From the NCBI GenBank assembly GCA_010405405.1, contig MU004234.1, forward strand, positions 2,515,697 to 2,579,696: a stretch of DNA of 64,000 nucleotides, read 5' to 3'. Made by a program: the position numbers and the translations under genes. Origin of the DNA: Microthyrium microscopicum. Its lineage: Eukaryota. The notes below the pieces were generated by a model. The model had not been told where the DNA came from, did not search any database, and was given only the letters and a program-made list of their open reading frames with translations. Every line of letters begins with the position of its first letter. Within the stretch, counting starts at the first letter, position 1. Of the stretch, positions 344 through 36,899 are shown piece by piece.

Positions 344-505
344 TGTTATAGATTAGATAACGAAGAGACAAGTTATATTATAAGCCTACTAAATAGAAAG
401 GTAACTTAGAGAGAAAGAAGAGTTAAGAGACTCTTTAATTAAGGTGTTTATATATAATAGGGGTAGCCTAAATAAGTATAGCTTTAGGGGGTTTAACCCT
501 TAATA
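344..505 (-). repeat. 3' LTR of Gypsy A
   Basis: Direct repeat of 7740-7901; starts TGTTA; a pyrimidine run (PPT on the minus strand) follows at 506-520. Confidence 0.95.
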
Positions 506-1955: not shown

Positions 1956-2099
1956 GTACTACTTAAGTTTATCTTCCTTAGTAGTAAGGGTTTATTAAGC
2001 GTGTCTTATTTCTTTAGTTTTCTTATATTTTTATAATTTTTTAGTTTTATTTAGTAGAAAAGAGAGTCTTAATATAAATAAAAGAAAGTATTTCTATAC

Positions 2100-5000
2100 G
2101 TAGGTTATAAATAGTACCTCTAATTATATTTCTATAGAGTTAATTACTATAATAAGAAGACTAGTTTTTAATCTTAATTATACTTAAAAAATAGACTAGT
2201 TTAGTACTAATCTTCTATAATTATTTTATACGTACTTTATCTTCTTTATTTACTTTATATAAGCTTCTAACTATTTAATAAAATTAATTAGTTCTTTTAT
2301 TATATCTAGATAACTTATCTACTTAATAATATAGACTATATAAAGTTTATTTTTTATTATCTTCTTATATTTTTTAGCTATAATCTTCTCTACTAGCTAC
2401 TCTTTTTATTCCTCTCTATCTAAGTTTTTAACTAAGATTAGTAGTAGATAAGAATTATTAGTATCTTAACTTAAGAATAGGTTATCTATTATTAGTCTAA
2501 GTAGATTAACGTAGAATTTCTTAGTTCTCTATAGTATATTTAATATAATTATATATAAGCTTATTATTTTTATAACTTAGAACTTAGAGTAATAGTAATT
2601 AAACTTCTTCTTTACTTATTTAGTCTTAGTATTCTTTAGGTTTAGCTAGACCTAATTACTAACTTTATACTTAGGCGTTTAGATCTTTATTTAATTAGCT
2701 TATTCCTATATCCTTTCTTAGGTAAGGGTTATAGTATCTTAAGCCTATTTTATAGCTTTTAAAATTATATAAGTAGCTTTTTTCTTCTTCTCTTTTAGAA
2801 TGTCTTTCTATTTAGATAAGGAAGCTTACTTAGGAAAGTTTAGAAAGGTAGAGTTTTTAAAGCTATAGAATAAAAAAAAGGATAAGAGTTCTATTATAGA
2901 TAAGTATTATAAGTTAAGTATAAGTTAAAGTATTAGTATTAGTAAGAACTAGTTTAATTATATATAATTTATATATATTTATACTTTAGCTTTAATATCT
3001 AAGTTTTATTATTCTATAAAGCTATCTATCTAGGAGTAAAATATAGTTAATAGCTATAGCTCTATCTATAGTAATATATAGAACTTTATCTAAAAGTCTC
3101 CTATAAATACTAAGTTATAATTATAAATAATTATATTAGGAATACTATAAAGGAAATAGATATATTATAAGAAAATAGCTATAACGTCTTTAGCTTCTTT
3201 CTAAGTAAGAAAGATTAAGATTACTTCTTTACTTAGCTAATTAGTAATAACTATTAAGATTATATATTTATTTAATAGAGAAAAGTTTATTATAAAATCT
3301 ATAGATAGTTTTTACTATTATTAGCTTAAGATAAGTAAAGGCTTTAGGAAGCCTCTTTTCTACTTATAACTAACCTTTAATTAGCTATATATACTATAAT
3401 TTCTTATAAAATGCCTTATATTAGCTATAATTCTAGGCTAGAAGAAGTATAGCTATAGAGCTTAGTAAGTATCTTTATAGCTAGAATAGCCTTAGGTTAA
3501 GGATATATAAGCTACTTATAGTATTACTATTTATAAAGATTCTAAATTTAGGATTTATAGTTATTCTCTTTAGTAAAGGTAATCCTTACTATTAATTAAG
3601 TAGTTAGAAATAAAGATTTTAATATTTATAATTAATAAGAAAAACTTTCATCTACTAGCTTTAATTATCTAATAAGCTACTTAATAGGTATTATTAGCCT
3701 ATACTACCTTATTCTACTAGGTTACTAATAGTTTAGAAACGTTTAGTATTAGTAGTAGTAAGCTAGAGATTAAAACTTTATTAGCTAATAGAGTTTCTAC
3801 TAATTTATTTTTAACTACTATAGAAAGGGTAGTAATATAGATAAATAAAGCTTATAGTAATTTAAGTAATTAATCTTCTTAGATATAAAGTAGTTAGAAA
3901 GTTCTAGCCTAAATCCTTTTATTAGCTATATTCTAAGGTATATTTTATTTATAATAAGAAAGATTATCTACTATGCTATTCTATAGGCCTAGTTAGTACT
4001 TAATTATTATATTATACTTTATAAGTTTAATAGATTATTAAATGTACTTTTCTATAAGCTTCTATAGTTTTATAAAATACTCTAGGTTTTTATAATTAAA
4101 TATTACTTTAAACTTCTCTATTACTTATAGCTTTAAGTCTTATTCTTCTAGAGTAAGTATAATTATAAGTATCTCTTTATTATAGATTAGGTAGTTACTT
4201 TAAGTAGAGTTATACTTTTTAGAAAAATAGACTATTAATTAAAACTTACCTATTTTATCCTTTTATATTAATATAGCTTCTAAAGAATAACTAAAAGAGT
4301 TAGTATAAATAAGAGTCTCTTTATTATAGTTAAATAAGACTAGTATTTAGTTAGTAGTAAAAAGCTATTTTAGCTTCTTAAATATAGCTCTTTCTAAGTC
4401 TTTAAATAAGAAAAGAATATCTTTCTAAATAAATTAAATAAGAGGTTCTATAATTATTTAAAAGTTTAGTATAAACTTATAATAGAAGTTAGCAAAGCTA
4501 AGAAAAGCTTAAACTCTATAAACGTTCTTAAGAGCCTTTTATTCTTAGATTGCTTTAACTTTAGCTAAGTCTATTAAGATTCCTTATTTAGCCTTAATAA
4601 TATAACTTAAATATATTATCTAAGTAGTTATAAATTTATACTTCTAAATATTAAGGTAGAGTTCTACTTTTTATAGCTACTTAAAGACTTTATAAATATA
4701 GGCTTTATATTACTTCTTAGTACCTAAGCTAAAGATTAAGACGTTATTTAAGTATATAAAAATATAGTTATCTAAGATATTTTAAAGAGTAGAGTTAATA
4801 AACCTTTAAAAGGTACTTAGAGTATTTAATAACCTAAATAGTATTACTATCTATTTAAATAAGCTATATTATATTTAAAAAGCTATTTTTTACTTATTAT
4901 CCTTATATATCTAAATCTTATAGAATACTTAAGATACGTCTAGCTTAGTAAACTATTATACCTTTCCTAAAGCGTTTAGTATCTTATAGATAAGTAGTAA

Positions 5001-7300
5001 GGAGTAATAGTCCTTTATAATTAACTTATTTAACGTATAGTAGTTATAATAAAACTAAATTAATCTATCTACTTTACGAATAAAGAGAACTAATACTCTA
5101 GTAAGTAAGTTACTTACTTAAATAAACCTACTTTCTAGTAGATTATTAAGGATTTTTCTAAGGGCTAGTAATTTATCTTAATTTATAAAGTATAATACCT
5201 ACTAAGGTAACTAAGGTTCCTTTCTATTAGCGTCTAGGATTAGGTTAATCTTATAGTCTATAGAAAGGCCTTAGATAAGTAGCTATTTATTAGTTAGCTT
5301 TCTTTAAAAAAAGTTAAGATAATCTAAATATTATTTAGGAAGCTTCCTATGAGGGTTAATATGCTTCTTTAAAATAAAAGCTTTTTATAAGTTATAAAGA
5401 CTTATAGTAAAGATTTATATAATTAGTATTAAGCCTTCTTAAGACTATCTTACCTACTTTTTAGCTTATTAAGTAAGTATCCTAAATACTATAGCCTTAA
5501 TTACTATATAGTTATATTTCTTTTAAGAAGTCTTTAGACTTATAACTATATAACTTATTTTATTAAAGACTAGCTTCTTAGGTTTTATATAAAGAATAAT
5601 ATCTTATTTCTTTATTTAAGGTAGACTAAGGATTATATTATAGCTTAAGGTCTCTTTTACTATAAAAGCTTAAATAGTTTCTTTATAGCCTTTAATATTA
5701 ATCTTTATAATTACTATTTTATAAATTTCTTTAGCCTTACTATTTATCTTTTTAATAGAAATTACCTAAGGTAGCAATATATATTTAAGTTTACGTCTTT
5801 AGGCGAAGTAGAGACTTATAAGGAAATAGGTTAAGTAGCTACTATTAATAAAGCTTATATATAAAGAAAGTTAATTTACTATTAAAAGTATTAAAAAGGG
5901 CTCTATAACTATATTCTAAATAAAGAACTTCTAACGCTATTCTAAAATAATATTTTTATAATTTTCTAGCTTAGTATTATATCTTTAATCTAAGCTTACT
6001 AGTTTTCTAATTCTATATTAATAACGTTATATAGATTATTATAAGGATTATTATTTCTTAGCTAAGTAGTAGTAGCCCTTACTAGCTAGCTACTCTAGAA
6101 GATATTTAGAGCGTTAGTAGTATTAACCTAGAATCTACTAGTATTATTTTATAAGTATTTACCTCTAGTAGTATCTCCTCTATCTTATTCTTATTTATAG
6201 CTAGCCTAGCTATAAAAGGAATTCTAACTTTTAAATAACGCTTAGAGTGCTTATTTATAATCCTAAATCCTATAATTAGCTAAGCTATAGTAAAAATAAA
6301 GGTTATTTTACTTATAGTAGTTACGCTAAGCTTAGCTAGCTCTAACTTAGACGTCTTTTATTACGTCTAGGTCTTAATTCCTAGATAGTTAACTCTACTA
6401 AGTACTTATTTTAGTGCTTAGGCTTCTTAGGCTATAATAGCTTATATAAGCTTAAATTATTTAATCTTAGGTTTCTAAAGCTTCTTAGGTAAAGGTATCT
6501 AAATTATTAAGCTAGAGATAAATAATTAAAGTTATTTTAAGATTAGAATCTATAGTATTTTTTAAGAACTATATTTAGATAGGAGTAGCTTAAAATTATA
6601 CTCTAGTATAGATAAAATACTACTAAAACTTAGCCTAAAAGATTCTCTATTCTCTACCTTCTTATTAAATTCCTTAAAGGTTTACTAAAGCTTTTATTTT
6701 TTTATATAGGTTATAAAAGAGAAGGTCTATTTATTCTATAAACTTACTAAAACTTATAATACTATAGCTAGTAGGATTCTAAATCTAGGGAAGGACTTAT
6801 TAAGTAGTATCTTTTATAAGCTAATTAAATATATAGTAGATTTAGGTATAGTTATTTATGTAAATTTATTTATTAATATATAATTTTACTTTAATTATTT
6901 AGTAAAAACTAGAATAAAGAGTTAAGTCCTTATATAAATATTATTCTAGGTTTAAGAGAGCTAGTTAGAGGTTTTATAGTAGTAGTTAAAGTAGCTTATA
7001 TTAGGCGATTAGAGAATTTATTAAAGGAGGTAAAGAAGGAGCTACTAATTTAGCTATTATAATTAGAGTCTAAGAAAGATTAGCTTATAAAATTAGAAGA
7101 AGATAGTAGCTATAGTTAGAGATTTTTCTAGTAAAAAGTATAATTAGTATTAAAGAAAAAGTTATACTAAGTATTATAAATTCCTTCTAGAGTTATTCTT
7201 ATTCCTACTACTACTACTAGGTTAGTATCTTATAAGTAGTATTATTTACTTATTATATAAGAATCTTACTATTAGTATAAATATTAGTAAGCTATTTATT
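2100..7300 (-). pseudogene. gag-pol relic of Gypsy A (PR-RT-RNaseH-IN-chromodomain)
   Basis: Degenerate YLDD motif at ~4745, integrase-like region at ~2900-3550, chromodomain-like region at ~2130-2300. Boundaries are approximate. Confidence 0.8.
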
Positions 7301-7739
7301 CTAGCTATTAACTTAAGCCTAGAGTTTAGTATAGACTATTATAATCTATTATATATTCTCGTTTAATTATATATAAATTTTGCTAGTTAACTTATTTAGT
7401 TATTATAAAGCTTATCTATAACTAATAGTAGTTATATATAATTATAAGATAAATAAATTAAGCATATTATTAAGTAGTAAAATACTATCTATTACTTATT
7501 ATAAGCTATTATTAGTTACTTTCTAGAATGCGTCTAAGTAGTTCTATAGCTCTATCTATTATTAGTTAATATACGTAAAGTACATTTCTACGTTCTTATA
7601 AGTAAAGCCCTTAAAAGACGTTTCTTTATCCTATCTAGTAGTTATTAGGCAAGAAGGATCTTAGTCTATTATTCTAGCTATTTATTAACGAATAGAGAGA
7701 AAGTAGGTAAAAAGAGGGGTTAGTTTTAAAGTTACCTAA

Positions 7740-7901
7740 TATTATAAGTTAGATAATGAAGAGACAAGTTATATTATAAGCCTACTAAATAAGAAGGTAA
7801 CTTAGAGAGAAAGAAGAGTTAAGAGACTCTTTAATTAAGGTATTTATATATAATAGGGGTAGCCCAAACGGGTATAGCTTTAGGGAGTTTAACTCCTAAC
7901 A
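7740..7901 (-). repeat. 5' LTR of Gypsy A
   Basis: Direct repeat of 344-505; ends TAACA and is followed by TSD ATAGG. Confidence 0.95.
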
Positions 7902-7906
7902 ATAGG

Positions 7907-8950
7907 ACTTATAATACTATTATAGGAAATATTAAGTATTTAGACCTAATTACGTTTAGTCTATAAATAGTTATAATAAGTTAAAACCTTTTAGATTCTA
8001 GATCTATATTACTATTAATATATACTCTTATAAGATTATATAGATCTATATTAGCATTTTTAATAGTATAGTAATAAGTTACGTTTACTAGTACATTAAA
8101 ACTATTTAGGCTAAAGGATATACTTTAAAGTAGATTTAGTCTAATTAAGGTATTAAAACTATTATAATAGCTAATTACTATTATAAAATTTATAAGCGCT
8201 AGAGTAGTAATAACCTTTTTAACTTTCTTTATTACTAGATATATAGAATAAGCATAGTAAACTAGCAAATTAAGATATAATAAAACTAGCTTACTACTTA
8301 AACTCTTTATTAATTTATTATATAATATAAAGTACTACTTATACTAATAGTTACTAATATCCTAATAATAGTTTTTTATAAAACTTATTAACTAACGTAG
8401 TTTTAATTTAGGAAAGTTAGTAGATAGAATTACTTTACTTACTATCTATATACTACTAATTTAAAAGGATATTAATAAGTTTTAATATACTTAAAATGCT
8501 TATAAAATTTAACCTTAAGGAGCTAAGCCTAATATTAAAAATAGTAGACTAAACTTCCTTTATAATATTATTACTCTTAACTATTTAGATTAGAGTATAC
8601 CTCTTAAGAAAGAAATATTTAAGGACTTAGAACTATTATTATTATATTAAAATATAGATATATACTTATTTACTAAAATACTAGCTTAGTACGAATTAAA
8701 ATTTTAAGCTATAGGTTTTAATAGAAATTTAACTCTAATATTTAATACTAAGAATATAATAGCGCCCTAGGTAAGAGTCTATAATAAGTTTTAAATAATA
8801 GTTTAGGCTTATATTATAAGTAAGGTAAGTCTAAAACTTAGCTAACTACTAATACTAATTAGAGCTATTAAATAAATAGCAAAAATAGAATAATTAATAG
8901 CTTTAAACGAAATTCTTATAAGAATATATCTAGAACTAGTAGCTAAAGAA
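7907..8950 (+). pseudogene. 3' part of the integrase-core (IS3/IS481-like, IS3EU-type) transposase
   Basis: De-RIP reading gives VPGPNYVWSIDGHDKLKPFGFQIYAAIDAYSRKIMWIYVGISN...IRSDRGVET...YGTSTANQRIETWWNQL, then an intron-like gap at ~8332-8371, then DRIALLAIYMP...WNAHKIRPQ. This matches the motif series of fungal integrase-core transposases. Confidence 0.85.
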
Positions 8951-9499
8951 AGTAAACTAAATTTTCTATTAAATATTAAATAGAGTAAATCTAGAGTACT
9001 TTAGTCTTATATATAATATAGTTTTTTATTAAATTTTTTTATAAATACGTAATAGGCTTAATAAAAATACTTTCTTTTATATATAATTAGATAGATAAGG
9101 TAAAAAGTCTACTCTTTCTATATAGTATTTATTACCTTTATATTATTAAATAAAGTATATAGTTAGATAATATATATAAAACTACGTAATAATTAGAAAT
9201 TAAATAATCTTTAAATATCTTTATTACTTCTAATATAATATCTTATCTAGATATAATAGGACGAATTTAGTATATATTTAGTAACTATAGTCTTAAGTTA
9301 TATATCGTTCTGCCCTAAGATAGGCTATAGTTATAGAGAAATAATAAGTTAATATTATAAAAAATATAGTTTTATTATTAGCGTTTAATAACTTATTATT
9401 ATATCTAGTACTAATAATAGTACATTAGATTTAACTAGTAATAATAATAATAATAAGTAATAATAATAGAATCTAGGATTTAATATTCTTACTTTCCTA

Positions 9500-11250
9500 A
9501 TAATAGCGCCTTATATTTTACTTATGCTAATAGATTTAGAATCCTTATAATATTACTAAATAATATTAATAGATAGGAATAGCGTAGTAAGAGTCTATAG
9601 TAATCTCTCTACTAACACTAAAGTAGTATAATAGGTAAGCTTAAATATAATACGCCTTATAGCTATTATAAGAATAATAGCTATAATACTTATAGTTCTT
9701 TCTTACTAATATATTTACTATAATAAATTAATTAATAAAGATAAATATATTGTTAAAAAATTTATTAGTAGCAAATATTTTAGTAAGTAGTAGAGCCTAT
9801 TTAAATAAACCTAGTTTAATTTATATTTAGCTTATTAATTTATAATACTTCTTCTAACCTTACTTATTCTAATACTTAATAAGACTAAGCCTCTTCTTAA
9901 CCTAAATATTATACTTAGCTTATAAATTTAAATATATATTTTAAATATAAACTAGAACTTAAAATAAGAAGCCTAAAGAAGTACCTCTTATTTCTTAGTA
10001 ACTTTAATTAAGAAGATAAACCCCTTTATTATTTTATCTAACGTAACTATAATAGCTTATTATACCTTAAAAGACCTTCTAAAAAAATATTTATAGAGAA
10101 AAGTAAATAGAAGTACTATAATAATATACTTAAGGTTTAAAAAAGTTAGTAATTATACTATTAATAATACTCTACTACTAGTAGAACTTAATATACTTAA
10201 AACTTTGCTTAATACCTCTAGAGTAATATTAACTTCTAAATAAATAGGCTAAGATAATAAAGCACTACGAGAGAGTAAAGCTGCTCCTTAAGGTTAAGAA
10301 GGCAAAACTAAAAAAAAGGTTAAGCTAGTAGTTAGTAATAATAATAAATTTATTAAGAAAGAAAAGGAGAAGCTTATTTCTTTTAATAATAATAATAAGT
10401 ATAAAGATAAGAATAAGGATAAGGATAATATATTACTAAAAGGAAGTACCTTATATAAATAGAATTAGTTAAGGACTTTAGACGTTATTTCTAACTATAG
10501 CTTTTAATAGAAGAAAAGTAAGAATAACCTTATAAATAATACGTAATTATAAGGCTATTATTACTCTTCTTTACTTTAAATTTAAGGCTTTTCTCTTTCT
10601 TTTATACTCTTAATATACTTTATATTTTACTTTAGTTCTAATATAAAAGTATATAGGTTATACTATTTTTTTTCCTTTATTATTTACTATAACTCTATAT
10701 TTAAGTCTAGCTTTTAAACTTTAGTTTTTTTATTTACTTAAAGGACTATTAATTAACTATTATATAGACTTAATTATATTTAACTATAAAGACTTTGCTA
10801 TTAGCTAGTAACTATTATAAAGCGCTACTAATATTATAGCTTTTTAACGTTCTTAGCGTCTCTTAGAAGAACTTATACTTTTTTCTAATATTTAAAATAA
10901 CTTTATAGGCTTGTTAGTGCCTAATAATAAAGTATATAAAGGACTTAAAGCTTATTAGCTAGACCTTAGAATTTATAAGTAGTTTATTAACTTATAGGTT
11001 AAACCTAAATAAACGTTAGTAAGTATAATAATTACTATAATTTATTAAGTAGAAGTTATAAAATATAGTATAGAAAACTACTATATAAAGATAAAATAGT
11101 TAAGAAATAAGCTTAAGGAATTTATATAATATTACTATAAATATTACTAGAACTAGAACTACTAACTAAAAATTAAATTAATTAAAAGCTATATTAAACT
11201 ATAAATCTAGAGGTTAAGGAAGTTAGAAGTTAAGTATTAATATAATCTTA
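9500..11250 (+). pseudogene. RIP relic of unidentified coding sequence
   Basis: Protein-like frames at ~10200-10500 (AAT/GAT/AAG run consistent with a former D/E-rich tract) and ~10770-11250. No family recognised. Confidence 0.35.
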
Positions 11251-11559
11251 TAAAAAATTAGTTATGTTTCTATTTAATACTATTAGCTACTTATTAGGAT
11301 ATATAATAATAGTCATTAAGCTTTAATATTAATTTTAATAGACTTTCTTAGGCTATTAGTTTATAGAGAAGTTATAGTCTCCTTTAAAATAAATATAATA
11401 TTAGTTAGTAGGAAATAACTTAAGAAAGGTTAATAAAGTTAATTATTAGGCCGCTAAATACTTAAGAGTAAAGGTAGTAAGCCTTTTAATATCTAGACTA
11501 TATACTTTTAAGACTCTCTAATTAGGAGTAACTTTATTTTTTTCCTTATATATAATATA

Positions 11560-12995
11560 GTTATTTATATCCTTATTATTAAATTTATAATAGCGCTTTA
11601 ATAACCTCTTACTATTATACTTACAAAGAGAATAACCTTTATTAAAGTTAACCTCCTAAACTAATTACTTATTCTCTTCTTATTCTTTCTTAATCTTTAC
11701 TTTATTTATCTCTTTTAAAGCTCTTAAAGATATATTAATTTTTTTAGCGTTATTTAAAATATAAATAGGCTAGTAATACTCTTTTTGTTTAATACTATTT
11801 ATCTAAATAAAGCTTACCTTAGCCTTACTTATACTTTTAAGAATTCTTCTTACTTACTTATATAATCTCTATAGTCTACCTTAAAAGCGTATTAATAATA
11901 TTAATATATCCTTACCTTTTAGAAGATTTAAGTTACTAAACTTAACTAATAAGCTTATTATATTACTATTATAATTTATATATATCTTTATCTCTTCTAC
12001 TTTTAAATATACCTTAAAAATATCTAACTTCTCTTTACTATTTATATAGCACTAAAGGTCCTTATAGAAGAGCTTTAGGTAAGATTCTTTAATTTAATAT
12101 TATATTATATTAATTTATATTTAGTTATTAGTATTATATTAAGGACTTAATTAAATTTATAACTCTTAGAGTAAATATTATTAAGATAATATATAGGATA
12201 AAATAAAGCTTATAAATTCTTAGCTACTCCTTAGTAAACTAAGAGAGTAGTTAGGAACGTATAAGCTTTATTTATTTTAAGGACTTTTTAGCTAAATCCT
12301 TCTATATTAGAATATTTTATAAAGTAGTAACTTTAATTATAAAATAAGATCTAGAAAAAGTTATACCTATATTAACTTATAATTTTAATCTATCTTTTAT
12401 CTTAGATAATATATTACTAAAAGGTATACTATACTAAAAGAGGGTTAAATTTAACTTATATATACTTTCCCTAGTATTTTTAAGTCTTTATTTTTTAATA
12501 TTAAACCTTAACTACTTTTTAAGTAAATTAAGAAAATAATTAGGGTCTAATATAGCTTTAGAGGAGCTAATGCCTACCTAAATTAGGATTTTTGTTAGTC
12601 TATTATTAAGTTAGTATTATTTTTAATTATAAGTAGAAGTAAATAAATTCTTATATATTAGTTATCTTATTACTAATATATATTTCTTCTATATAAAGTA
12701 TTACCTTAATTAATAATATAGTAGGTAAGGATCTAGTACTTTATTAATATATATATAATAAAGTTCTTAATAAAGATATACTATTACGTTAGATATAACT
12801 ATCTTTCTAAAAAGAAGTACTATTAGCTATACTTTAATTAATACCTATAATATATACCTAAGTTTATAATTAGCTTTAACTTATTAATATAATACTATCC
12901 TTATAGATAGAAAACTTCCTAAAAAGATAAAAGAACTAAATATATAATAAGTACCTAAAGTAAGTAAAGTAGTATACTTACTTTACTATTTTAGG
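11560..12995 (-). pseudogene. RIP relic of an unidentified intron-containing gene whose 5' end lies at the Gypsy B insertion site
   Basis: Long minus-strand frame with stops mostly explainable as CAA/CAG/TGG. GTAAGT donor at ~12981 and a CTAAT...TAG intron at ~12808-12856. Confidence 0.4.
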
Positions 12996-13000
12996 CGTAG

Positions 13001-13268
13001 TGTTAGAAACAGGTCGTTCTAAGTAAGTAAAGACTATAATTATTATAGTTTAAGTAGACACATAAAAATAGAGACGAGAGTAATTACTAGAGAGTTACTT
13101 AGACCTTTATAATCCCTCTTTTTTATTACCTAGAGCTATAAGGACTTTACTAAGCTATCTATATTTATAATAGATTATTATTAGTTAACTTAACTAATAA
13201 TACTTTATTCTATATAGATGTATCTTATTAATAGTTATCTTAAACTAAAGGTATCCTAGTTCTTAATA
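13001..13268 (-). repeat. 3' LTR of Gypsy B
   Basis: Direct repeat of 21512-21779; starts TGTTAG. Confidence 0.95.
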
Positions 13269-13952
13269 TTATCCCTTTTCTTAAGGCTATTTATTTTAAA
13301 AAGTATATTTAAAGGTTTTAATAAATATTTCTTATACTTATATATAGCTTTTAACTATACTCTATTATACTAAGACTTAGAAGAGGATAAGGCTTAACTA
13401 AACGTATAGGATTAGGCTATTTATACCTTAAGGAGTCTTCTATAGCCTAGTAATATTCTTATTCTCTAGCTTTAGTATATTACTTATTTAAGATAAATAG
13501 CTTTCTATTTTTTATCTACTCTAAATAGATAGTTCTCTATTTTCTACTAGTCTTAAGCTATAATTAACTATATTAACTTAAACTTAAAGGAGTTTAGTTA
13601 TTAAGGTTTAATATATTAGTAAAATATTTAATAAGTAGTTAATAGCTCTATTAAGGTCTTAATTAGTTAATACTAGCTTTATTAGAGTTAAATTAACTTA
13701 TTTATAAATATAGCGTAGTATTACTATTTATATTTAATTAAATCTTATTAAAATACTACTAAATAGTTATTCTATATATAGTATAAGTTATCTAGTTATT
13801 AAAATATATATAGCTTAACTTAGTTAGTTATACTATATTAGATATACTAAATTTATATTAGTTTAATATAATTAGCTTTATAGTAGGTTAAGTAGCTATA
13901 ACTTATATATAAAACTACTCTATAAGCTTTATTTAGCTCTAGATTAGAGGTA

Positions 13953-16170
13953 TATTTTAACCCTATTTTATATTAAAAAGGGTTCTTAAAGGAGTACTCC
14001 TTATATATATATCTTAACGCTTCTTATATCTAATTAAGGGTTATTTTATATTATTTATAATAAGGTATTTAAATCTTTACTTAAAAGTTTAGAGATTCTA
14101 AGGCTAGGATTATACCTTCCTATTTAGGAAGTTATAATCTCTCTAAGTACTTATTATATTATATATAACTTTCTTTTACTATAGGAGGCTTTTATAGATT
14201 TTTACTAAGTATTATTATATTAATACTTAGCTATTTTAAGAAGGTAAGAAGATTTAGGTATAAAATAATCTTTCTTACTCTAAATCCTTTATCTCTTATT
14301 CTTTATACTCTAAATCTTAAGGTAAGTAGAAATTTTATAGTTTTATAAATATATATAAAGATTACTATTACTAACCTATTTTATATTATAGGTTCCTTTC
14401 TAGTAACTATAAATTTTCTCTTCTTAGTTATTAAGCTACTTAGCGTTTTCTTAAGTCTTCTTAACTTATTTTAGTATACTTTATATCCTTCTAACCTTTA
14501 ATAACTTATCTTTATTAACCTATATATTTTTAAACTTATCTTTATTTAAAGTAAGTATTAATATAAATAAGTTACTTAAAGATTTTATTAAAGGCTCTTA
14601 GGTCTTTACTAAGGGCAACTTTAACTCTAGTAAAACTATAGTAATTATTTTTACTAGTAAAAATATTAATATATCCTATAATAACTAAATCTTAACTATT
14701 AATATTATAAACCTTACTAAAGTAGTTTCTAAGAATAAGATAGAGTAAAAATATGCTAATAAGAGTATTATAGCCTTACTTAGCTTATTATAGTACTACT
14801 TAACCCTAAATCCTTATTAGTATTATATAAAGGTCTATATAGTATATTTCTTTCTTCCTTTAACTACTAAACTCTACCTTATTCTTAACTTAGACTATTA
14901 TTATACTTAATAAGTTAGTTTAAGTAAGTACTTTATTAAATACCTTAATATAAAGTTAACTAAGAATTATCTAGAGGTAATATCTTATTTTAACTTATTT
15001 TGCATTATATTATACTAATATAAGTAAGTTATTCCTTATTAAGACCTTTATAATAAGGCTAAGCTTATTTTAGTCTATATTATTATTAATAAGGTTATTT
15101 ATACTCTTAAGAATAGTTTTTAGAATAAATTATCCTATAAAGATAAGTATATACTTTATAATAGTATTTAGTATACTTATAAGTATATAGTAACTCTTTA
15201 TAAGTTATAAGTACTTATTTTAACTAATTCTAGTTTAGCTTTATATATTTAGATGCTAATTAGTTTATAATTATATATCTAAGTAGCTAGTAGCTAACTT
15301 CTTCTTATTATACTCTAGTATTACTAAGAATAGCTTCTATATAACCTATATACTTATTAACTATTATATAGGTACTAAAGCTACCTAAAAGCTAGTAAAT
15401 AATAGCCTTTTAAAATTAGAGAAGTATATTATAGCTTATCTAGCTTTCTTAAGTACTAATATCTAATTCTATCTTCCTAAGTACTTTAAGTGCTATAATA
15501 TGCTATATTCCTAGTATATAGACTTCTACTATATTATTAGTTCTTAAGGACCTAATATATCTTAAATAAGTCTTTTTATATTTATACTAAGTTATTTTAT
15601 ATTTAACTATCTTATAGTAATTTACTAATACTAAGAATAACCTAGCTAGTGTCCTTTTAAACTCTTAAGTATTTCTTAAGCGCTATAAGGTCTATCTTAG
15701 TATTTCTAAGCGCTAAGAGGTTAAGGCTTATATTAAAAAGGCTATTAAGGCTTTTTATAAGAATAGTTATACTAATAAGGACTATTCTAAGATTAAGGCT
15801 ATAGCTTTTACTATAAAAAAGCGTAAGATAAGCTAGGTAGCTTCTTCTTAAGTTAAAATAGAATTAGATAGGTTATCTTAGGTTTTTTTAGAATTTAGTA
15901 TTATCTATACTTAGTTTTAATTAGCTAAATAAAGCTATTTCTTATTATATTAAGTTATTTTACGTCTCTTAAGAATAAGTTAGTTAGTAGATACTTTTCT
16001 AAGACTTCTTAAGGATAGGTTTATTAATAGATACCCTTATAGAACTATTATATAGCTAATTTAACTCTTAGTTAGAAATTACTTATTCTTTTATATATTT
16101 TTTAATACGTATTTTAACTCTATTTTATATTATAAAGAGTTCTTAAAGGAGTACCCTTTATATATATATA
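13953..16170. repeat. Internal ~60-bp direct repeat pair (13953-14012 and 16110-16170) in Gypsy B
   Basis: TATTTTAACYCTATTTTATATTA...GTTCTTAAAGGAGTACYC(C/T)TTATATATAT occurs at both positions. Confidence 0.85.
14550..15885 (+). pseudogene. Extra spliced gene antisense to gag-pol inside Gypsy B (RIP relic, unknown product)
   Basis: Canonical intron upstream (GTAAGT 14322, CTAAC 14371, TAG 14391). Long plus-strand frames at 14550-15146 and 15634-15885; the latter de-RIP reads ...FLERHEVHLGISERQEVEAYIEKAIKAF...AFTVKKRK. Boundaries are approximate. Confidence 0.6.
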
Positions 16171-16399
16171 AAGACTTATTTTATATATTATTCTAAGTTA
16201 TTTTATATATTTATAACTTAGTAATTTTCCTATATACTTATTATTTAGTACTATTTTTAAGTTACTTTAAGTTAATTTATTATAATATATATATAAAGGA
16301 GTTAATTTAGGTTCTAATTAGTAAGAAAATTATAAAGTAACTATCCCCCTTCTTTAAAAGCTCGTCTTAAGTCTTTTAGGTCTTTTTTAGCCTTTTTAG

Positions 16400-19300
16400 C
16401 TATTTTTTTAGTCTTATAAAGTTAAGATCTATTAATCTATTTATAATATTATCTAGATATATTATTTCGTATTTAACTACTCTTTTAATTATATTTATTA
16501 CTAGTATAATACTCTTCTTAGCTAACTTTATATAATAGTACTTTAAAATAGTTAAAGAAAGGTTAGTTATAGGCTCTTAGGTTAATTTAGACTCTAGGTA
16601 ACCTTTCTATTTTATAAGGTAGTAATATTTATCTTTTTTATTTACTATATGCTTTATTATCTCCTCTATATTATATATATTTAAGTCTTCTAAGTTTAAA
16701 GAATTTTATAATAATATAGACTTCTATAAAAAGTAAGGGTTTAGTTTATATAGCTCTAATAAAAAGATATAGAATATATTATAAACTTATACGTTTTTTA
16801 GGAAGTTAAGCTAGTAAGTATTAGCGTTTATAATCTTTATAATCTTAAAGGAACCTATATACTTAATATTAAGCTTCTTCTTAATATAAGTAATCTAAAT
16901 ATTCTTTATATTAAGTAAAACTTAATTATTAACGTTTAAATAAACGTCCTTCTTTCCTTTATTATACTAGTTAGCTTAGTATAGCTATACTTTAACTAAT
17001 TTATTCCTTATTATATATTATAGGGATAGGATATAGTTTACTATCTTTTTAGCGTTAAGTATAATACTTTTTAATAGTATTTTAGCTAATTTAAAAGTAT
17101 AAGAGTTCCTTTTAATATATATAATAAAAGGAGTAATTCTAGTTAATAAGTAAATACTATTATTATAGTTAAACTTAGCTAAACTAAGCTATTTTACCTA
17201 ATTATTCTATTTCTAATACTTATAAATCTATAGGTAGTACTTAACCTCTTAGTTTAAGTACTCTATTTAACTATTAGTCTATAAATAGAATACTATTAAA
17301 AGCTTTCTAAGAATAAAAAAATAATAAAGGAATATTTTCTAGTACTTAGAAATAAAGAGAGGTCCTTAATTAAATATAATAGTATAAGGTATGCTATATA
17401 GGTATATAACCTCTTATAAGAAGATCTTAGTAAGGTTTTTTATATCTATATTCTTTCTTATTAAGATATAGTAGGCTATTTTAATTAATTTATTAATAAC
17501 TACTATAATAGAGTTATAGATTTAACTATTATAAATACTTAGAGGTAAATCTATAATAAAATTTATAATAATATTCTTTTATAACATTTTTAGGACTAGT
17601 AAGGCTATTAGCAACTCTTTCTAGGCTTATCTAATAGATTTATTATGTTAGTAGTTAAAGTAAGCTTTATAATAGTTCTTAACGTTCTTCTAGACGTAGT
17701 CCTAAGTATAGTAGCGCTTAATCTTCTTAAGTATCTTCTTTAATCCTTTATAATTACCTTCTATAGCGTTATTATAGAACTATTATAAGATTTTCTTCTT
17801 TTATAACTCTTCTTTAATAAAAATAAGATTTCTACTCGTCTATTTAGTTTTATCTAAGTTATTCTTAGCTAAAGGTAGTTTATTAATAGCTAAAATCTTA
17901 CTAGAGCTTATTTTTAGATACTTCTAGGTCTTAGTAAGCTTATCTTAACTTTTCTTAAGTTAGTTTATAGTAAGATACTATATATTAATACTAACGTATA
18001 TAATAATAAAGTCTATAAATCTAATAGTATTAGTTTTAGCTATAAAAGCGTTATTAAGCTATAACTTATTATAAAGTAGATTAAGTAATACTTCTATAGT
18101 CTTTTTCTATTCTCTTTAGCTCTCTTTAACGTAGTCTAAACGTCTTAAGAGTTTATTAGCTAGATTTATCTTACCTAGGTAGTGCTTAATATTAAAATTA
18201 TATTTTAAGAGTAAATTTATCTATTTTATATATATTAATAATATTTTTAGTATTATTTTAAGCAATTTAAGGTTTATATAGTCTATTAAGACCTAAAATT
18301 AGTCTAGTAAGCCTTATAAGTACTTTCTAAATACTTTTAAGGAATCTATAATTACTAAGAACTTTTATTATAAAGTTTTATAGTAGCTCTTTAGTAGAAA
18401 TAATTTCTAAGAATAGAATATAATAAGTTTCTATAAGCTATCCTAGCCTTTATTATGCTATTTTTAGCTTAATATCTTATAAATTATCTTTCTAAAGGTA
18501 TTAGTTTCTAACTATATAGAAAGTATAAGGTTAAAATAAACTAAAATTAGTACGTTTATAAAAGAATCTTTTAGTTTATTAAAAGAATCTAAGGCGTCTA
18601 GTAGTAATTTAATATCTATAAACTCTTTTTATTATAGCTTTAAGCCTTTTAAGGCCTAACCTAGTTCTTTTTAGGTTAAGGCGTTTAGTAGTATAGTAAT
18701 ATAAGAAAATCTAGCAATAAACTAATAATAGTAGTTTATAAAGCTAATAAATTCCTTTACTTAGTATATATTATATAGTTTTAGCTAATCTAGGTATATA
18801 TTAATCTATAACTAATCTATAATAGTACTATTTAAGGTTATAATATAACCTAGATACTCTATATTACTAGTATAAAACTTATACTTAGATAGTTTTACGT
18901 ATAAATAATACTCTATAAGTTACTATAAAACTTCTTAGATATTTTTAATATATTACTCTTTAATTTTAGAGTAAATAAGGATATTATTAAGGTAAATAAT
19001 ATATATTATGTCTACTAAGCCTCTTAATACTTAGTTAATATACGCTTAGAAGGCCGTAAGAGTATTTATAAGTCTAAATAAGACTATTATATATTTAAAT
19101 ATTCTATATTTAGTCCTAAACGTAGTTTTCTACTTATTACTATTTTTAATACGTAAATAGTAATAAGCTTTACGTAAGTTAAGACTAGTAAAGAACTTAG
19201 CGCCTTAAAGTTTATCTAAAGACTTCTTAATAAGAAGTAATATATACTAATCCTTAATAATAATATTATTTAGGCCTTAGTAGTTTATATAGAGTTATAA

Positions 19301-21300
19301 TATTTTATCTTTCTTCTTTATAAAAAGGATAAAGGCTTTAATAAGGAATCTTAACTTCTAGATTTAACCTTTTATAAGGTAAGTATCTAAGTACTTATAT
19401 AGAATAATTAACTTAGCTTCTAAGAGGCTATAAATAGGTTTATATAGTACTATAGCGCCTAGCTCTAGATTAATCTTAAGGTCTTATAGGCTATATTAGG
19501 CTAATTTAAGTATATCTTATTTATTAAAGGCTTTAGTAAACTATAAATACTTACTTAGGAACTCTTCTATAGATAAATTTAGGTCTAGTAACTTAACTAG
19601 ATAATTAAATAGTTAGGATAAACTATACTAAGCTAACTTAGAGAACTTATTAGCGTTTATAGTCTCTATCTTGCTATAGAAGCTACTAAAAGATTACTTC
19701 TATATAAGAATCTTATTCTTAAAGTCTAGAAGAAGATTTTATTTCTCTAACTAGAGTATTTCTATAATAATAGAATAATATAAAGAGTTTATAATATAAA
19801 ATAACTCTATCTTAGTCTTAAGGAGGCTATTTAAGTTAATTACTATTACTATAGCTTCTATAACTTTATAAATTTATATAAGAGTACTATCTAAGTATAT
19901 TATAAGTATCTTAGAAAGGAAAGTAATATAGAGCTAAAGTTTTTTAGCTAGCTTAATATCTATAATATTAAAGTATAATCTATAATTAACTATAATATTT
20001 AAGAATAAAGCTTTCTAGCCCTTATTATCCCTTAAACTCTTTTATAGATATATTTACTTTAACTTTAGTCTTATAAAGTCTACTTTATTAAGTAAGTTAT
20101 TATTCTTAGCTTTTAATATCTTTAAGATATATATAATAATAGTCTTATAGAGCTATTTAGCGCTAGGCTAGGCTATTTTATTAATAAGAAAGGCTACTAA
20201 GTCCTAGTTTATAACTTTATAACCTTATCTTTCTTTTATAACTTAGAGTATTCTATTTTAAAATAAGGTTTACTATATTTAAAGTATTTAACCTTTTTTA
20301 GGTTAGACTCTAGTAGAATATTTACGTTCTAAGTTATTTTAGATATAGCCTATTCTATTTTACTATTCTTTAAAGGATAAAAAGACTTTCTAAGTATTTT
20401 TAGCTTTTTTAAGCTCTTTTTATACTTATACTTATCTTCTAAGAAGCGTAAGTATTATTTTAAAAAAGGTTATCTTAGGTTTACTTTTTTAGAAGTAGAC
20501 TAAGCCTTAGCCTCTATAGAACTAAGAGTCTAGTATAAGTTAGCCTTTTTAAGAGCTTCTTTAACTATAGTAGTAGTAAACTTCTTATTAAAAAGAATCT
20601 TCTTCTATATATTTCTAAGGAGGTCTCTATAAAACTAAAAAAGGTAACTCTTTTAGTTATTATACTCTTATTCCTTCTATAACTTAAGGAGATTATTATA
20701 AAGCTTTTAAAAATAGTGTTAAATTAATTTAACTATCTAAAACTTCTTAAAAGTAATATATTCTTACTTTATAAAGTAGCCTAAATAGCTTAATATATAG
20801 TCTTAAACTACTTACTATATCTTTTAGAATCCTAAGTCTTAGAACTCTTTATAAAGAATAAGATTATCTAATCCTATTTATAATAGCTTTTTCTTAAGCT
20901 AATTATATTTATAAATATACTAGTAGAGTTACTAGTTATAAGTACTTTCTTAATAAAAAGGTTTAATAAACTTTTATTTAATATTATTAACTTAGAATAT
21001 ATATTCTTAAAGACTCTTCTCCTTATAAGGCTTTATCTTAGGCTTATCTTAGTTTAAAGGTCCTAAAAAGGCAAAAGCTTAGCTTAAAAGATACTAATTA
21101 GGTTTTGTTATATTAACTTAGCTAAAGTTCTCTAACTCTTAAGTAATTTTAAGCTTGCTAAACTAAATTACCTTAGCTTTTACTATTAGCTCTTATACTT
21201 TAAGCTCTAGCTTCTTTTTATTAATAAGCATATTAAGTTCCTCTTTATAGCGTATTATAAAGTTATTTTAAGTCTCTCTAAGCCTAAGTAGGTTAGGATT
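16400..21300 (-). pseudogene. gag-pol relic of Gypsy B
   Basis: RT at ~18600-19450, RNaseH at ~18100-18500, integrase at ~16800-17800 and chromodomain at ~16500-16680, judged from degenerate motifs. Confidence 0.85.
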
Positions 21301-21511
21301 AGCTAGTTTAATATTAAATAAGTCTAATAGACCTCTAAATATATTAGTTTAGAATATAATAAGTACTAGTAACCCTTAGCCTAATAGTTAAGGCTACCTA
21401 AGTCTTATTTAGATGCTAAGGTCTAAATATTTACTATTAAATATAGTTTCTAATTAGATAAAAGATAAAAATAATTTCTTTAGGTACTTAAAAGTTAAGA
21501 AGTAATTACTA

Positions 21512-21779
21512 TATTAGAAACAAGTCGTTCTAAGTAAGTAAAGACTATAATTATTATAGTTTAAGTAGATATATAAAAATAAGGATAAGAGTAATTACTA
21601 GAGAGTTACTTAGACTCCTATAATCTCTCTTTTTTATTACTTAGAGCTATAAGGACTTTACTAAGCTATCTATATTTATAATAAGTTATTATTAGTCAAC
21701 CTAACTAATAACGCTTCATCCTGCGTAGACGTGTCCTATTAGTAGTTATCTTAAACTAGAGGTGTCCTAGTTCCTAATA
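21512..21779 (-). repeat. 5' LTR of Gypsy B
   Basis: Direct repeat of 13001-13268, followed by TSD CGTAG. Confidence 0.95.
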
Positions 21780-21959
21780 CGTAGTAATAATAAGTAAAAG
21801 TAAATATATTAAAAAATAATTACTAAAATAAATAAGAATACTAAAAATAATCTTTACTATCTTAAAGTAAATTAGTAGATAATAAAGTAAATTTAGGACT
21901 TACTTAAAGCGTATGTTATAAACTTAAATCTAGTAAAGGATAGCTTATAATACGCTTTT

Positions 21960-36870: not shown

Positions 36871-36899
36871 ACTATATATATTAAATTTCTCTTCTTAAT

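What the first reader, a model, noticed from the sequence alone, without database searches (positions are those of the whole stretch)
13269..16366. Gypsy B carries a 3-kb extra module with an intron-containing antisense gene
Seen: 3.1 kb lies between the chromodomain and the 3' LTR, with a canonical plus-strand intron (14322-14391) and long plus-strand coding-like frames ending in a KKRK-containing segment. Established: introns antisense to the genomic RNA survive retrotransposition, and standard fungal chromoviruses have the PPT directly after pol. Inference: the element has its own separately transcribed accessory gene, possibly a nuclear factor (e.g. a silencing suppressor).
Basis: partly seen in the sequence, partly recalled or inferred. 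Interest (0 to 1): 0.75.

Follow-up and report, generated by a model that had tools for sequence, protein, structure and literature searches.

The report
Dead fungal retrotransposon with antisense ORF remnant
A mutation-wrecked copy of a common gypsy-type retrotransposon in a leaf-litter fungus carries a 3-kb insert after its polymerase gene that seems once to have encoded a protein on the opposite strand, a layout already known from a few plant and fungal elements.

Summary
The 3-kb spacer is real. Element B is a complete minus-strand Ty3/gypsy chromovirus (13001-21779) with 268-bp LTRs and a CGTAG target duplication. It is saturated by RIP and has no ORF of 60 aa or more. The host is Microthyrium microscopicum, judged from a 100% identical host protein.

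The insert (13283-16341, 3,059 bp) lies between two copies of the element's polypurine-tract 13-mer. That 13-mer occurs only at these two places in 64 kb (0.02 expected). This suggests one insertion at the PPT/LTR junction of a standard ancestor.

DNA runs of the organism hold many RIP-diverged sibling contigs. They cover the insert about as deeply as pol and cross both of its borders. None skips it. It is therefore part of the family, not a private nested insert.

A codon model validated on the RIPped gag/pol frames finds a significant period-3 coding signal on the plus strand, antisense to pol, at 14470-15279. A weaker signal covers the KKRK segment.

The "intron" motif exists but is no more than chance, and the flanking frames do not fit it. 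No homologue was found, and no RNA evidence was obtained.

Antisense ORFs between pol and the 3' LTR are already described (Boty brtn; Grande, RIRE2, Retand). Verdict: partly supported; a new, dead member of a known kind.

The parts
12996..13000 (.). Target-site duplication CGTAG, left copy
   Evidence: Read directly; identical 5-mer at 21780-21784.
13001..13268 (-). 3' LTR of element B (268 bp; TG...TA ends, the CA end RIP-changed)
   Evidence: 89% identical direct repeat with 21512-21779. Contigs of other copies run into unrelated sequence at 13003 (table 7).
13270..13282 (-). Polypurine tract, copy 2. Sense strand AAGAAAAGGGATA, 1 nt from the 3' LTR.
   Evidence: The pattern TATCCCYYTTCTT matches only here and at 16342-16354 in 64 kb; 0.02 expected.
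13283..16341 (.). The extra module (3,059 bp) between the two PPT copies
   Evidence: Sibling contigs cover all of it at a depth similar to pol. No Pfam match in six frames even at E up to 10.
13860..14061 (.). Internal direct repeat D3, copy a. Core holds the palindrome AAGGAGTACTCCTT followed by a (TA)n run.
   Evidence: Transition-tolerant Smith-Waterman score 144 against a null maximum of 74.
14322..14391 (+). Intron-like motif GTAAGT...TACTAAC...TAG (70 nt). Probably chance; at best it lies in a 5' UTR.
   Evidence: Present. Expected 1.5 per 26-kb strand. The downstream +1 frame has 6 stops in 26 codons. The upstream +0 'exon' has a negative codon score.
14470..15279 (+). Remnant of an ORF of about 270 codons, antisense to gag-pol (frame: coordinate mod 3 = 1). 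15 stops, all TAA or TAG.
   Evidence: Codon-model score 10-15 against simulated maxima of 3.4-11.9. TAA counts of 9, 41 and 19 in the three plus frames, and A at codon position 1 of 0.45 as in pol. A model trained only on element A also picks +1.
15601..15840 (+). Weaker plus-strand coding-like stretch (frame mod 3 = 0) that holds the KKRK segment
   Evidence: Score 8.0 at W=240, with a model that still held rare codons. The null for the trimmed model had a 95th percentile of 5.1 and a maximum of 7.0. Not re-scored with the trimmed model.
16018..16217 (.). Internal direct repeat D3, copy b
   Evidence: 208 columns: 147 identical, 23 transitions.
16342..16354 (-). Polypurine tract, copy 1 (sense strand AAGAAGGGGGATA), just downstream of the end of pol. 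Presumed to be the ancestral PPT.
   Evidence: CCCC occurs at only 3 positions in 26 kb, and 2 of them are here.
16355..20200 (-). pol of element B (frame: coordinate mod 3 = 1). Chromodomain at about 16556-16675.
   Evidence: Pfam RT_RNaseH_2, SH3_Tf2-1 and Chromo. Ty3/gypsy polyproteins at E as low as 7.6e-98. Alignment to P0001 through the chromodomain. Codon model.
20250..21450 (-). gag region of element B, in another frame (mod 3 = 0)
   Evidence: Codon model trained on pol only or on element A only. No domain match was obtained.
21512..21779 (-). 5' LTR of element B
21780..21784 (.). Target-site duplication CGTAG, right copy

Best explanation
Element B is a dead, RIP-saturated copy of a high-copy Ty3/gypsy chromovirus family of Microthyrium microscopicum.

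In this family the usual pol-PPT-3'LTR junction is split by a 3,059-bp insert. The insert is bracketed by two copies of the element's own 13-14-nt polypurine tract. Inferred: a single insertion at the PPT/LTR boundary of a standard ancestor duplicated the target. That left a working PPT next to the LTR, so the composite could still replicate, and it then amplified.

The insert holds the remnant of at least one ORF of about 260-270 codons read on the strand opposite to gag-pol. That ORF has no detectable relatives. Structurally this is an antisense additional ORF between pol and the 3' LTR ('aORF-3R'), as in Boty (brtn) and in Grande, RIRE2 and Retand.

Inferred, not shown: when the family was active, the ORF was transcribed from its own promoter inside the insert, against the genomic RNA. 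The protein, or the antisense RNA itself, modulated the element's own cycle. Today every copy seen is RIP-mutated, and this copy encodes nothing.
For: Element anatomy, LTRs, TSD and PPT.

The PPT 13-mer occurs exactly twice in 64 kb, at the two ends of the insert, where 0.02 is expected.

Family-wide presence:
- 1,171, 917 and 358 contigs were laid from three DNA runs of one sample, and all 30 bins were covered.
- The differences are almost all transitions.
- Depth in the insert (X1 about 1,800-4,300) is close to that of pol (about 3,000-3,800), and the LTR is 2-3 times deeper.
- A sibling contig spans 16253-16624, and sibling contigs cover 13277 with 51 nt or more on each side.
- The only joint listed in table 5 (16695 to 16896) does not skip the insert.

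Antisense coding signal:
- The codon model picks the right frame in 8 of 8 left-out pol windows. The two gag windows pointed to frame -0 instead of my assumed -2, and I adopted -0.
- It recovers element A's pol and B's gag without having been trained on them.
- An A-only model gets 8 of 8 B pol windows right.
- In the insert, frame +1 at about 14470-15279 scores 15.1 and 13.3 against a simulated maximum of 11.9 (100 simulations).
- With the trimmed model it scores 10.2, 11.8 and 11.3 against maxima of 7.0, 5.9 and 3.4 (0 of 200 simulations reached it).
- TAA is split 9, 41 and 19 over the three plus frames.
- Its 15 stops in 270 codons fall within the 9-23 seen in host ORFs RIPped in silico.
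- No tandem array explains the period.

Relatives: 12 of 17 metagenomic relatives with an LTR pair have only 110-488 nt from the end of the pol alignment to the 3' LTR.

Precedent: passages in PMC7264820 and PMC8365987.
Against: - No open frame survives, so the ORF is inferred from statistics on a single copy.
- The strand call is imperfect. In host ORFs RIPped in silico, the mirror antisense frame sometimes scores close to the true one, and the true frame was top in only 4 of 5.
- The plus strand is the T-rich strand here, unlike the coding strand of gag-pol.
- The A-only model gives only 6.9, and no null was computed for it.
- There were no homologues among 1.84 billion proteins, in Pfam or in 80 related loci.
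- The PPT motif was defined from the two sites themselves, so the test is post hoc.
- A second PPT could be a functional internal PPT rather than a scar of insertion.
- The depths are not copy numbers, and the three DNA runs come from one sample, probably the one the window was assembled from.
- Nothing shows that the ORF served the element rather than being a passenger.
Confidence: 0.5

Rival explanations
1. Passenger transposon. The insert is the remnant of another mobile element, for instance a 5'-truncated non-LTR element or another TSD-making transposon. It landed in the PPT of a master copy and was then carried along. On this view the plus-strand ORF is that element's own gene and not an accessory gene of the chromovirus.
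For: - The insert is bracketed by a 13-14-nt direct repeat of the target. That is the length class I recall for target-primed (LINE-type) insertions, from memory and not from a call.
- A 200-bp internal direct repeat flanks the ORF-bearing core.
- The ORF's codon use resembles that of the RIPped TE genes the model was trained on.
Against: - No TE domain appears in six frames even at E up to 10.
- phmmer found nothing with the ORF, although RIPped pol still finds relatives at 7.6e-98.
- All 10 simulated RIPped 270-aa fragments (five ORFs at two RIP levels) found their parent at E 5e-36 or better.
- There is no poly(A) or A-rich tail and no terminal inverted repeat at the insert ends (read).
- The D3 repeats lie 124 and 577 bp inside the ends and have no matching flanking 5-mers (by eye).
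- D3 depth is not raised above its surroundings.
- The codon model also scores host genes RIPped in silico, so 'TE-like' is not specific.
Confidence: 0.25
2. No gene at all. The insert is a non-coding 3' region, such as accreted junk or duplicated UTR. On this view the period-3 signal is a statistical accident, or the mirror image of a short sense-strand frame.
For: - There is no open frame, no homologue and no RNA evidence.
- The coding signal covers only about 0.8 of 3.06 kb.
- Simple tests (period-3 chi-square, low-stop windows) cannot even prove pol to be coding.
- Weak minus-strand signals also occur (-2 at 14259-14700, p about 0.04-0.06).
- Two metagenomic relatives (three loci, two of them identical) have 2.1-2.5-kb spacers with at most a 75-aa sense ORF at the pol end.
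Against: - 0 of 200 Markov-2 simulations reach the +1 score at any of three window sizes.
- The result holds under three training sets.
- The TAA split of 9, 41 and 19 over 810 nt needs a phase kept over the whole stretch.
- Its mirror frame -0 scores about 0.
Confidence: 0.17
3. A spliced antisense gene uses the intron at 14322-14391, and its product ends in a KKRK nuclear-localisation signal and acts as a nuclear factor or silencing suppressor.
For: - The motif has canonical GTAAGT, TACTAAC and TAG.
- It lies on the same strand as the coding signal and 80 nt upstream of it.
- Its length of 70 nt would shift frame +0 to +1.
- The +0 stretch upstream has very few stops (1 in about 79 codons; best 100-codon window p = 0.03).
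- The KKRK stretch has a positive codon score.
- Some plant antisense aORF products are nuclear (passage in PMC7264820).
Against: - The motif is at chance level.
- There are 6 stops in the 26 codons after the proposed acceptor.
- The upstream 'exon' has negative codon scores.
- The low-stop +0 run goes straight through the 'intron' with one stop.
- The KKRK stretch is in a different frame and about 350 nt beyond the end of the main signal.
- Lysine runs are expected in RIPped DNA of 20% GC.
- Nothing bears on a suppressor function.
Confidence: 0.07

Closest known systems
Boty-like (BcGypsy1) retrotransposons of Botrytis cinerea and Sclerotinia sclerotiorum with the antisense gene brtn (Zhao et al. 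2011, Virology 417:248). I saw this work only as a citation and in passages of PMC8365987, PMC7264820 and PMC4227169; the paper itself is not held.
   Same: It is a fungal Ty3/gypsy chromodomain element with an extra gene between pol and the 3' LTR, read antisense to gag-pol.
   Different: The host class differs (Leotiomycetes against Dothideomycetes). By my recollection Boty is about 6 kb with roughly 600-bp LTRs, so its extra region is small; here the insert is 3.06 kb in an 8.8-kb element with 268-bp LTRs. No sequence comparison with brtn could be made, because no brtn sequence was held. The whole-library phmmer search gave no hit at all. Here only RIP-dead copies were seen.
Plant antisense aORFs between pol and the 3' LTR ('aORF-3R'): maize Grande gene23, rice RIRE2, Silene Retand, Phaseolus PvRetro13 (review PMC7264820, passages read).
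   Same: The position and orientation match, and the ORF is present in most copies of a family. The products have no clear database similarity and their origin is unknown. Such ORFs sit in elements with long 3' regions.
   Different: Those are plant lineages and are not chromoviruses of fungi. For Grande an internal antisense promoter and nuclear localisation have been shown experimentally; nothing comparable is known here. The passages I read do not mention a duplicated PPT bracketing the insert.
Standard fungal chromoviruses (relatives of P0001 in metagenome contigs).
   Same: They share the order gag, RT-RNase H-integrase and chromodomain, short LTRs, and a PPT next to the 3' LTR.
   Different: In 12 of 17 relatives with a detectable LTR pair, the 3' LTR starts 110-488 nt after the end of the pol alignment. 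Here it starts about 3.2 kb after.
Internal (central) polypurine tracts of lentiviruses and Ty1 (recalled, not from a call).
   Same: There is a second, near-identical copy of the 3' PPT inside the element.
   Different: Those lie within pol and are maintained for plus-strand priming. Here the second copy sits exactly where the ancestral 3' PPT would be, at the border of the insert, which fits a duplication scar at least as well.

Membership tests
Ty3/gypsy chromovirus (LTR retrotransposon) | Two LTRs in direct orientation flanked by a short target-site duplication | tested here: met
   268-bp LTRs, 89% identical. CGTAG on both sides.
Ty3/gypsy chromovirus (LTR retrotransposon) | pol with RT - RNase H - integrase order and a C-terminal chromodomain | tested here: met
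   RT_RNaseH_2 (E 1.1e-6), SH3_Tf2-1 (5.8e-7) and Chromo (2e-4), in that order in one frame. RT_RNaseH_2 and Chromo fall slightly below Pfam's cut-offs because of RIP, and SH3_Tf2-1 is at its cut-off. Full-length Ty3/gypsy polyproteins match at E as low as 7.6e-98. The alignment to P0001 runs through integrase and chromodomain. The RVT_1 and rve models themselves did not match.
Ty3/gypsy chromovirus (LTR retrotransposon) | Polypurine tract directly upstream of the 3' LTR | tested here: met
   AAGAAAAGGGATA lies 1 nt from the LTR.
Ty3/gypsy chromovirus (LTR retrotransposon) | tRNA primer-binding site after the 5' LTR | not tested
   The sequence after the 5' LTR was read but not compared with tRNAs. 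RIP would have changed TGG.
Antisense additional ORF between pol and 3' LTR (aORF-3R: brtn, gene23, RIRE2, Retand) | Extra sequence located between the end of pol and the PPT/3' LTR | tested here: met
   3,059 bp at 13283-16341.
Antisense additional ORF between pol and 3' LTR (aORF-3R: brtn, gene23, RIRE2, Retand) | An ORF on the strand opposite to gag-pol | tested here: inconclusive
   No open frame remains. A significant codon and period-3 signal lies on the plus strand at 14470-15279. The strand call is imperfect in controls.
Antisense additional ORF between pol and 3' LTR (aORF-3R: brtn, gene23, RIRE2, Retand) | Present in all or most copies of the family (as opposed to one-off transduction) | tested here: met
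   Many diverged sibling contigs cover the insert at pol-like depth and bridge both borders, and none skips it. Limits: one sample, short contigs, and truncated tables.
Antisense additional ORF between pol and 3' LTR (aORF-3R: brtn, gene23, RIRE2, Retand) | Antisense transcription from an internal promoter | not testable with these tools
   No RNA run held the stretch. That blank says nothing either way.
Antisense additional ORF between pol and 3' LTR (aORF-3R: brtn, gene23, RIRE2, Retand) | Sequence relationship to a named member (e.g. brtn) | not tested
   No brtn, gene23 or other member sequence was held. The general searches gave no hit.
Nested transposon insertion | Target-site duplication at both ends | tested here: inconclusive
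   A 13-14-nt direct repeat of the PPT sits at both ends. The pattern was defined post hoc, and a functional second PPT is an alternative.
Nested transposon insertion | Terminal structures (LTRs, TIRs or a poly(A) tail) at the ends of the insert | tested here: not met
   No LTR-like sequence is in the insert. The D3 repeats are internal. No TIR or A-tail was seen by eye.
Nested transposon insertion | Recognisable transposon protein domains | tested here: not met
   0 Pfam families in six frames at E up to 10 and 0 phmmer hits. Sensitivity is reduced by RIP.
Spliceosomal intron (14322-14391) | GT...branch point...AG consensus | tested here: met
   GTAAGT, TACTAAC and TAG.
Spliceosomal intron (14322-14391) | More than chance, and joins two coding frames | tested here: not met
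   1.5 expected per 26-kb strand. 6 stops in 26 codons after the acceptor. The upstream codon score is negative.
Spliceosomal intron (14322-14391) | Spliced reads | not testable with these tools
   No RNA holder.

The most novel reading that the evidence does not exclude
An orphan gene of about 260 codons or more was captured at the polypurine tract of a Dothideomycete chromovirus. It may have had a TATA-bearing promoter in the duplicated D3 repeat and a 5'-UTR intron at 14322-14391. The capture was a single target-duplicating insertion, and the gene then rode to high copy number as an antisense accessory gene. That would be a second, independent fungal case of an aORF-3R. It would also be the first in which the scar of acquisition (a duplicated PPT) is still readable, and so it would show how such antisense genes enter LTR retrotransposons.
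Probability: 0.25. Interest if true: 0.5.

Novelty: new member of a known kind. Interest (0 to 1): 0.3.

Why it matters
Antisense ORFs between pol and the 3' LTR are known, but their origin and function are open (PMC7264820).

If the duplicated polypurine tract is an insertion scar, this family records how one such module was acquired. It would also show why the composite stayed mobile: the duplication regenerated the PPT beside the LTR.

The case further shows that coding remnants and their strand can be recovered from RIP-saturated DNA with a codon model trained on the element's own gag/pol.

The practical weight is small. All copies seen are dead, the host is a saprobe, and no function can be assigned.

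Tried and rejected
- **Whole genome of the window:** not held, so no family alignment, RIP-corrected consensus or dN/dS was possible.
- **Period-3 chi-square and lowest-stop windows:** these have no power. Even true pol is not significant, so they were dropped as tests.
- **First codon model:** this model mixed the gag and pol frames and failed. It was replaced.
- **Other copies in the window:** blastn of the module against the window found only the LTR pair and the D3 repeat.
- **Purine/pyrimidine-collapsed blastn:** this gave only noise apart from D3.
- **LTR remnant inside the module:** none; scores of 52-54 against a null of 47-65.
- **Extended similarity around the two PPT copies:** not significant; 34 against a null mean of 37.
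- **Element A's spacer against B's module by tblastx:** only low-complexity matches.
- **Protein searches:** phmmer of the +1 frame (313 aa, X at stops) against 1.84 billion proteins gave 0 hits. Pfam on six frames gave 0.
- **Module six frames against 80 metagenomic Gypsy loci:** none at E up to 1.
- **Long spacers in metagenomic relatives (L078/L079, L071):** they hold only a 75-aa ORF at the pol end or none.
- **Nested LTR-element reading of D3:** no matching flanking 5-mers, checked by eye.
- **RNA:** no RNA holder was listed. The one run guessed to be RNA (X5) laid nothing. This is no evidence on expression.
- **Earlier findings of this scan:** nothing held.
- **Literature:** a search for 'Gypsy', 'fungi', 'antisense ORF' and 'retrotransposon' found 0 papers. 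Zhao et al. 2011 is not held.
- **Not used:** one of three homologue searches, both structure predictions and the protein atlas. An X-masked RIPped sequence would give meaningless folds.
Full report
**Setting**

The first 26 kb of the window are about 20% GC, against 41-60% in most 1-kb windows of the gene-bearing part. RIP here is extreme: (CA+TG)/(AC+GT) is 0.03-0.06, against about 1.27-1.29 in the genic part.

A host gene at 59713-60906 is 100% identical to D-3-phosphoglycerate dehydrogenase of Microthyrium microscopicum, a Dothideomycete. No whole genome is held for the window.

**The element**

A 268-bp direct repeat (13001-13268 and 21512-21779, 89% identical) is flanked on both outer sides by CGTAG. 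Read with X at stops, one minus-strand frame carries these domains in order:
- RT_RNaseH_2 (E 1.1e-6)
- SH3_Tf2-1 (E 5.8e-7)
- a chromodomain (E 2e-4), at about 16556-16675

The same frame finds Ty3/gypsy polyproteins at E as low as 7.6e-98: 52 proteins at E 0.001 or better among 8,000 scored candidates. It aligns with the best of them through integrase and chromodomain.

Element B is thus a complete 8.8-kb minus-strand chromovirus.

In metagenomic relatives fetched with the best hit, 42 of 80 loci had an alignment to the pol end and 17 of those 42 had a detectable LTR pair. The distance from the end of the pol alignment to the 3' LTR was:

| Loci (of 17) | Distance |
|---|---|
| 12 | 110-488 nt |
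| 3 (two are one sequence) | 2,070-2,487 nt |
| 2 | 4,882 and 7,441 nt |

I take the last two to be mis-assigned pol ends and did not verify them. Several of the 12 are near-duplicates.

**What is not there**

- There is no ORF of 60 aa or more anywhere in 5000-19000.
- Each frame of the module has 100-144 stops per 1,032 codons.
- The GTAAGT...TACTAAC...TAG motif at 14322-14391 exists, but it is at chance level. The strict pattern (GTAAGT, CTAAC, YAG) occurs once on the plus strand and not on the minus strand of the 26-kb block. Markov-1 simulations give 1.5 +/- 1.2 per strand. The looser pattern occurs 7 and 5 times against 8.4 +/- 3.1.
- Splicing there would move frame +0 to +1. Frame +1 then has 6 stops in its first 26 codons. 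The low-stop +0 run passes straight through the 'intron' with a single stop.
- The upstream 'exon' has negative codon scores.

**Is the module private to this copy?**

No. Three DNA runs of one sample of the organism (probably the sample behind the assembly) gave 1,171, 917 and 358 contigs on 13001-17000 at 80% likeness or more.
- In X1, 217 were 99% alike or better, 287 were 95-99%, 438 were 90-95% and 229 were under 90%.
- The differences were almost all transitions, as expected for RIP-diverged siblings.
- All 30 bins were covered.
- Summed depth in the module (X1 about 1,800-4,300) is like that of the pol end (about 3,000-3,800). The LTR is 2-3 times higher (7,100-9,100).
- A sibling contig spans 16253-16624, across the pol/module border.
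- Contigs that differ from the window at 13277 reach 51 nt or more to each side, across the LTR/module border.
- The only joint listed (16695 to 16896, one contig) does not skip the module.

Limits: the depths are not copy numbers, the contigs are short, the tables are cut, and all three runs come from one sample.

**A coding remnant on the plus strand**

Simple statistics fail even on true pol. I therefore built a codon log-likelihood model (in frame against the five other frames) from the RIPped pol of B. Its controls were:
- Leave-one-out gave the true frame in 8 of 8 pol windows. The two gag windows showed that my assumed gag frame (-2) was wrong; the model pointed to -0 and I adopted it.
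- Trained on pol alone, the model recovers element A's pol (frame -2, 1951-6000) and B's gag (frame -0), neither used in training.
- Trained on A alone, it gets 8 of 8 B pol windows and 2 of 2 gag windows right.
- Host ORFs RIPped in silico score positive in frame in 5 of 5 cases, and the true frame is top in 4 of 5. Their mirror antisense frame is sometimes close.

In the module the only robust signal is plus-strand frame +1 at about 14470-15279:
- It scores 15.1 and 13.3 against a maximum of 11.9 in 100 Markov-2 simulations.
- With rare codons zeroed, it scores 10.2, 11.8 and 11.3 at windows of 240, 450 and 750 nt against simulated maxima of 7.0, 5.9 and 3.4, so 0 of 200 reached it.
- With the A-only model it scores 6.9.
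- TAA is split 9, 41 and 19 among the three plus frames. A makes up 45% of codon position 1, as in pol. The mirror frame -0 scores 0.4.
- Its 15 stops in 270 codons fall inside the 9-23 seen after in-silico RIP of host ORFs.
- No tandem array explains the period.

The best minus-strand signal (-2, 14259-14700) has p of about 0.04-0.06. A second plus-strand stretch in frame +0 at 15601-15840, which holds the KKRK, scored 8.0 with the untrimmed model.

They are supported as a statistical remnant, not as open frames.

**No relatives**

- phmmer of the +1 stretch against 1.84 billion representatives gave 0 hits at E 0.001 or better.
- Pfam gave nothing in six frames even at E up to 10.
- The 80 related loci gave nothing at E up to 1, while pol found them at 2.4e-97.
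- Power check: 10 of 10 simulated RIPped 270-aa fragments still found their parent, at E 5e-36 to 2.6e-66.

A recent copy of an annotated gene, or a member of a large family, would therefore probably have been seen. The library is clustered at 50% identity, which lowers that power. An orphan product fits what the review says of other antisense aORFs (PMC7264820).

**How the module got there**

The sense-strand tract AAGAARRGGGATA (plus strand TATCCCYYTTCTT) occurs exactly twice in the 64-kb window:
- at 13270-13282, 1 nt from the 3' LTR;
- at 16342-16354, just past the end of pol.

Shuffles expect 0.02. CCCC occurs at only three positions in 26 kb, and two of them are in the second copy. Allowing transitions and one indel, the repeat extends to about 20 nt (by eye; not significant in a local alignment).

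The pattern was derived from these two sites, so the test is post hoc. Even so, the position of the second copy is exactly where a standard chromovirus has its PPT. I infer an ancestor with pol-PPT-LTR and a single insertion at that junction which duplicated the target. That duplication would have kept a PPT beside the LTR, which would explain why the composite could still amplify. A functional internal PPT is the alternative.

Inside the insert, a 200-bp direct repeat (13860-14061 and 16018-16217; score 144 against a null maximum of 74) flanks the ORF-bearing core. It is not at the insert's ends, has no matching flanking 5-mers and shows no raised depth. No LTR remnant lies in the insert.

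**Comparison with what is known**

Antisense ORFs between pol and the 3' LTR ('aORF-3R') are described for maize Grande (gene23), rice RIRE2, Silene Retand and Phaseolus PvRetro13. In fungi they are described for Boty of Botrytis cinerea and Sclerotinia sclerotiorum (brtn, Zhao et al. 2011). Their products lack database similarity, some are nuclear, and their origin is called unknown (passages of PMC7264820; PMC8365987; PMC4227169). The original brtn paper is not held.

The present case fits this kind in position, orientation and family-wide presence. Transcription and any relation to brtn could not be tested.

**Verdict**

I put 0.5 on a family-wide insert carrying an antisense ORF of the aORF-3R kind, acquired by an insertion at the PPT. 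The rivals are:
- 0.25 that the ORF is merely the gene of a passenger transposon;
- 0.17 that there never was a gene;

It is a new but dead member of a known kind, and interest is modest.

Noticed in passing
window 346-7913: Element A is a second, different minus-strand Ty3/gypsy element. Its LTRs are 346-517 and 7742-7913, its RNase H is at about 4023-4394, and its pol is about 41% identical to B's in the RT region. It too has roughly 1.6 kb between the end of pol (about 2100-2180; chromodomain-like motif seen by eye) and its 3' LTR. That spacer carries borderline plus-strand (antisense) codon signals at 1001-1400 (+0; 5.9-7.0) and 1601-2000 (+2; 6.2). tblastx finds no similarity to B's module.
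   Followed up: partly
window 9901-10650 and 11401-12150: The codon model gives strong coding-like signals in the AT-rich stretch between elements A and B: +2 up to 16.5, and -0 up to 14.4. These are presumably remnants of further RIPped transposon genes and were not identified.
   Followed up: no
window 13953-14020 and 16110-16177: The best-conserved core of the D3 repeat holds a perfect 14-bp palindrome, AAGGAGTACTCCTT (in copy a), directly followed by a (TA)5-6 run. Copy a lies about 450 nt upstream of the plus-strand coding signal, so it could have been a promoter element. (TA)n runs are common in RIPped DNA, and this was not tested.
   Followed up: no
window 15597-15633: In runs X3 and X4, two contigs match only this 37-nt piece and run into unrelated, partly GC-richer sequence on both sides. 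This is probably a short match to another repeat family (table 7).
   Followed up: no
window 15413-16082: Summed contig depth in X3 and X4 is 2-5 times higher here than in the rest of the module, but not in X1. This may reflect extra partial copies of this segment elsewhere. Depth from contigs is not a copy number (table 2).
   Followed up: no
window 34300-38700 and 38703-39758: A second AT-rich (22-33% GC) block abuts a cytochrome P450 ORF (Pfam p450, E 7.1e-65) that starts only at profile position 136. The N-terminal part may lie in an upstream exon or have been lost to the RIPped block.
   Followed up: no
L078/L079 10672-12742; L071 6276-8763: Two metagenomic Gypsy relatives (three loci, two of them identical) also have 2.1-2.5-kb spacers between pol and the 3' LTR. 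One holds only a 75-aa sense ORF at the pol end (10752-10979), and the other has no ORF of 60 aa or more. These copies look decayed as well.
   Followed up: partly
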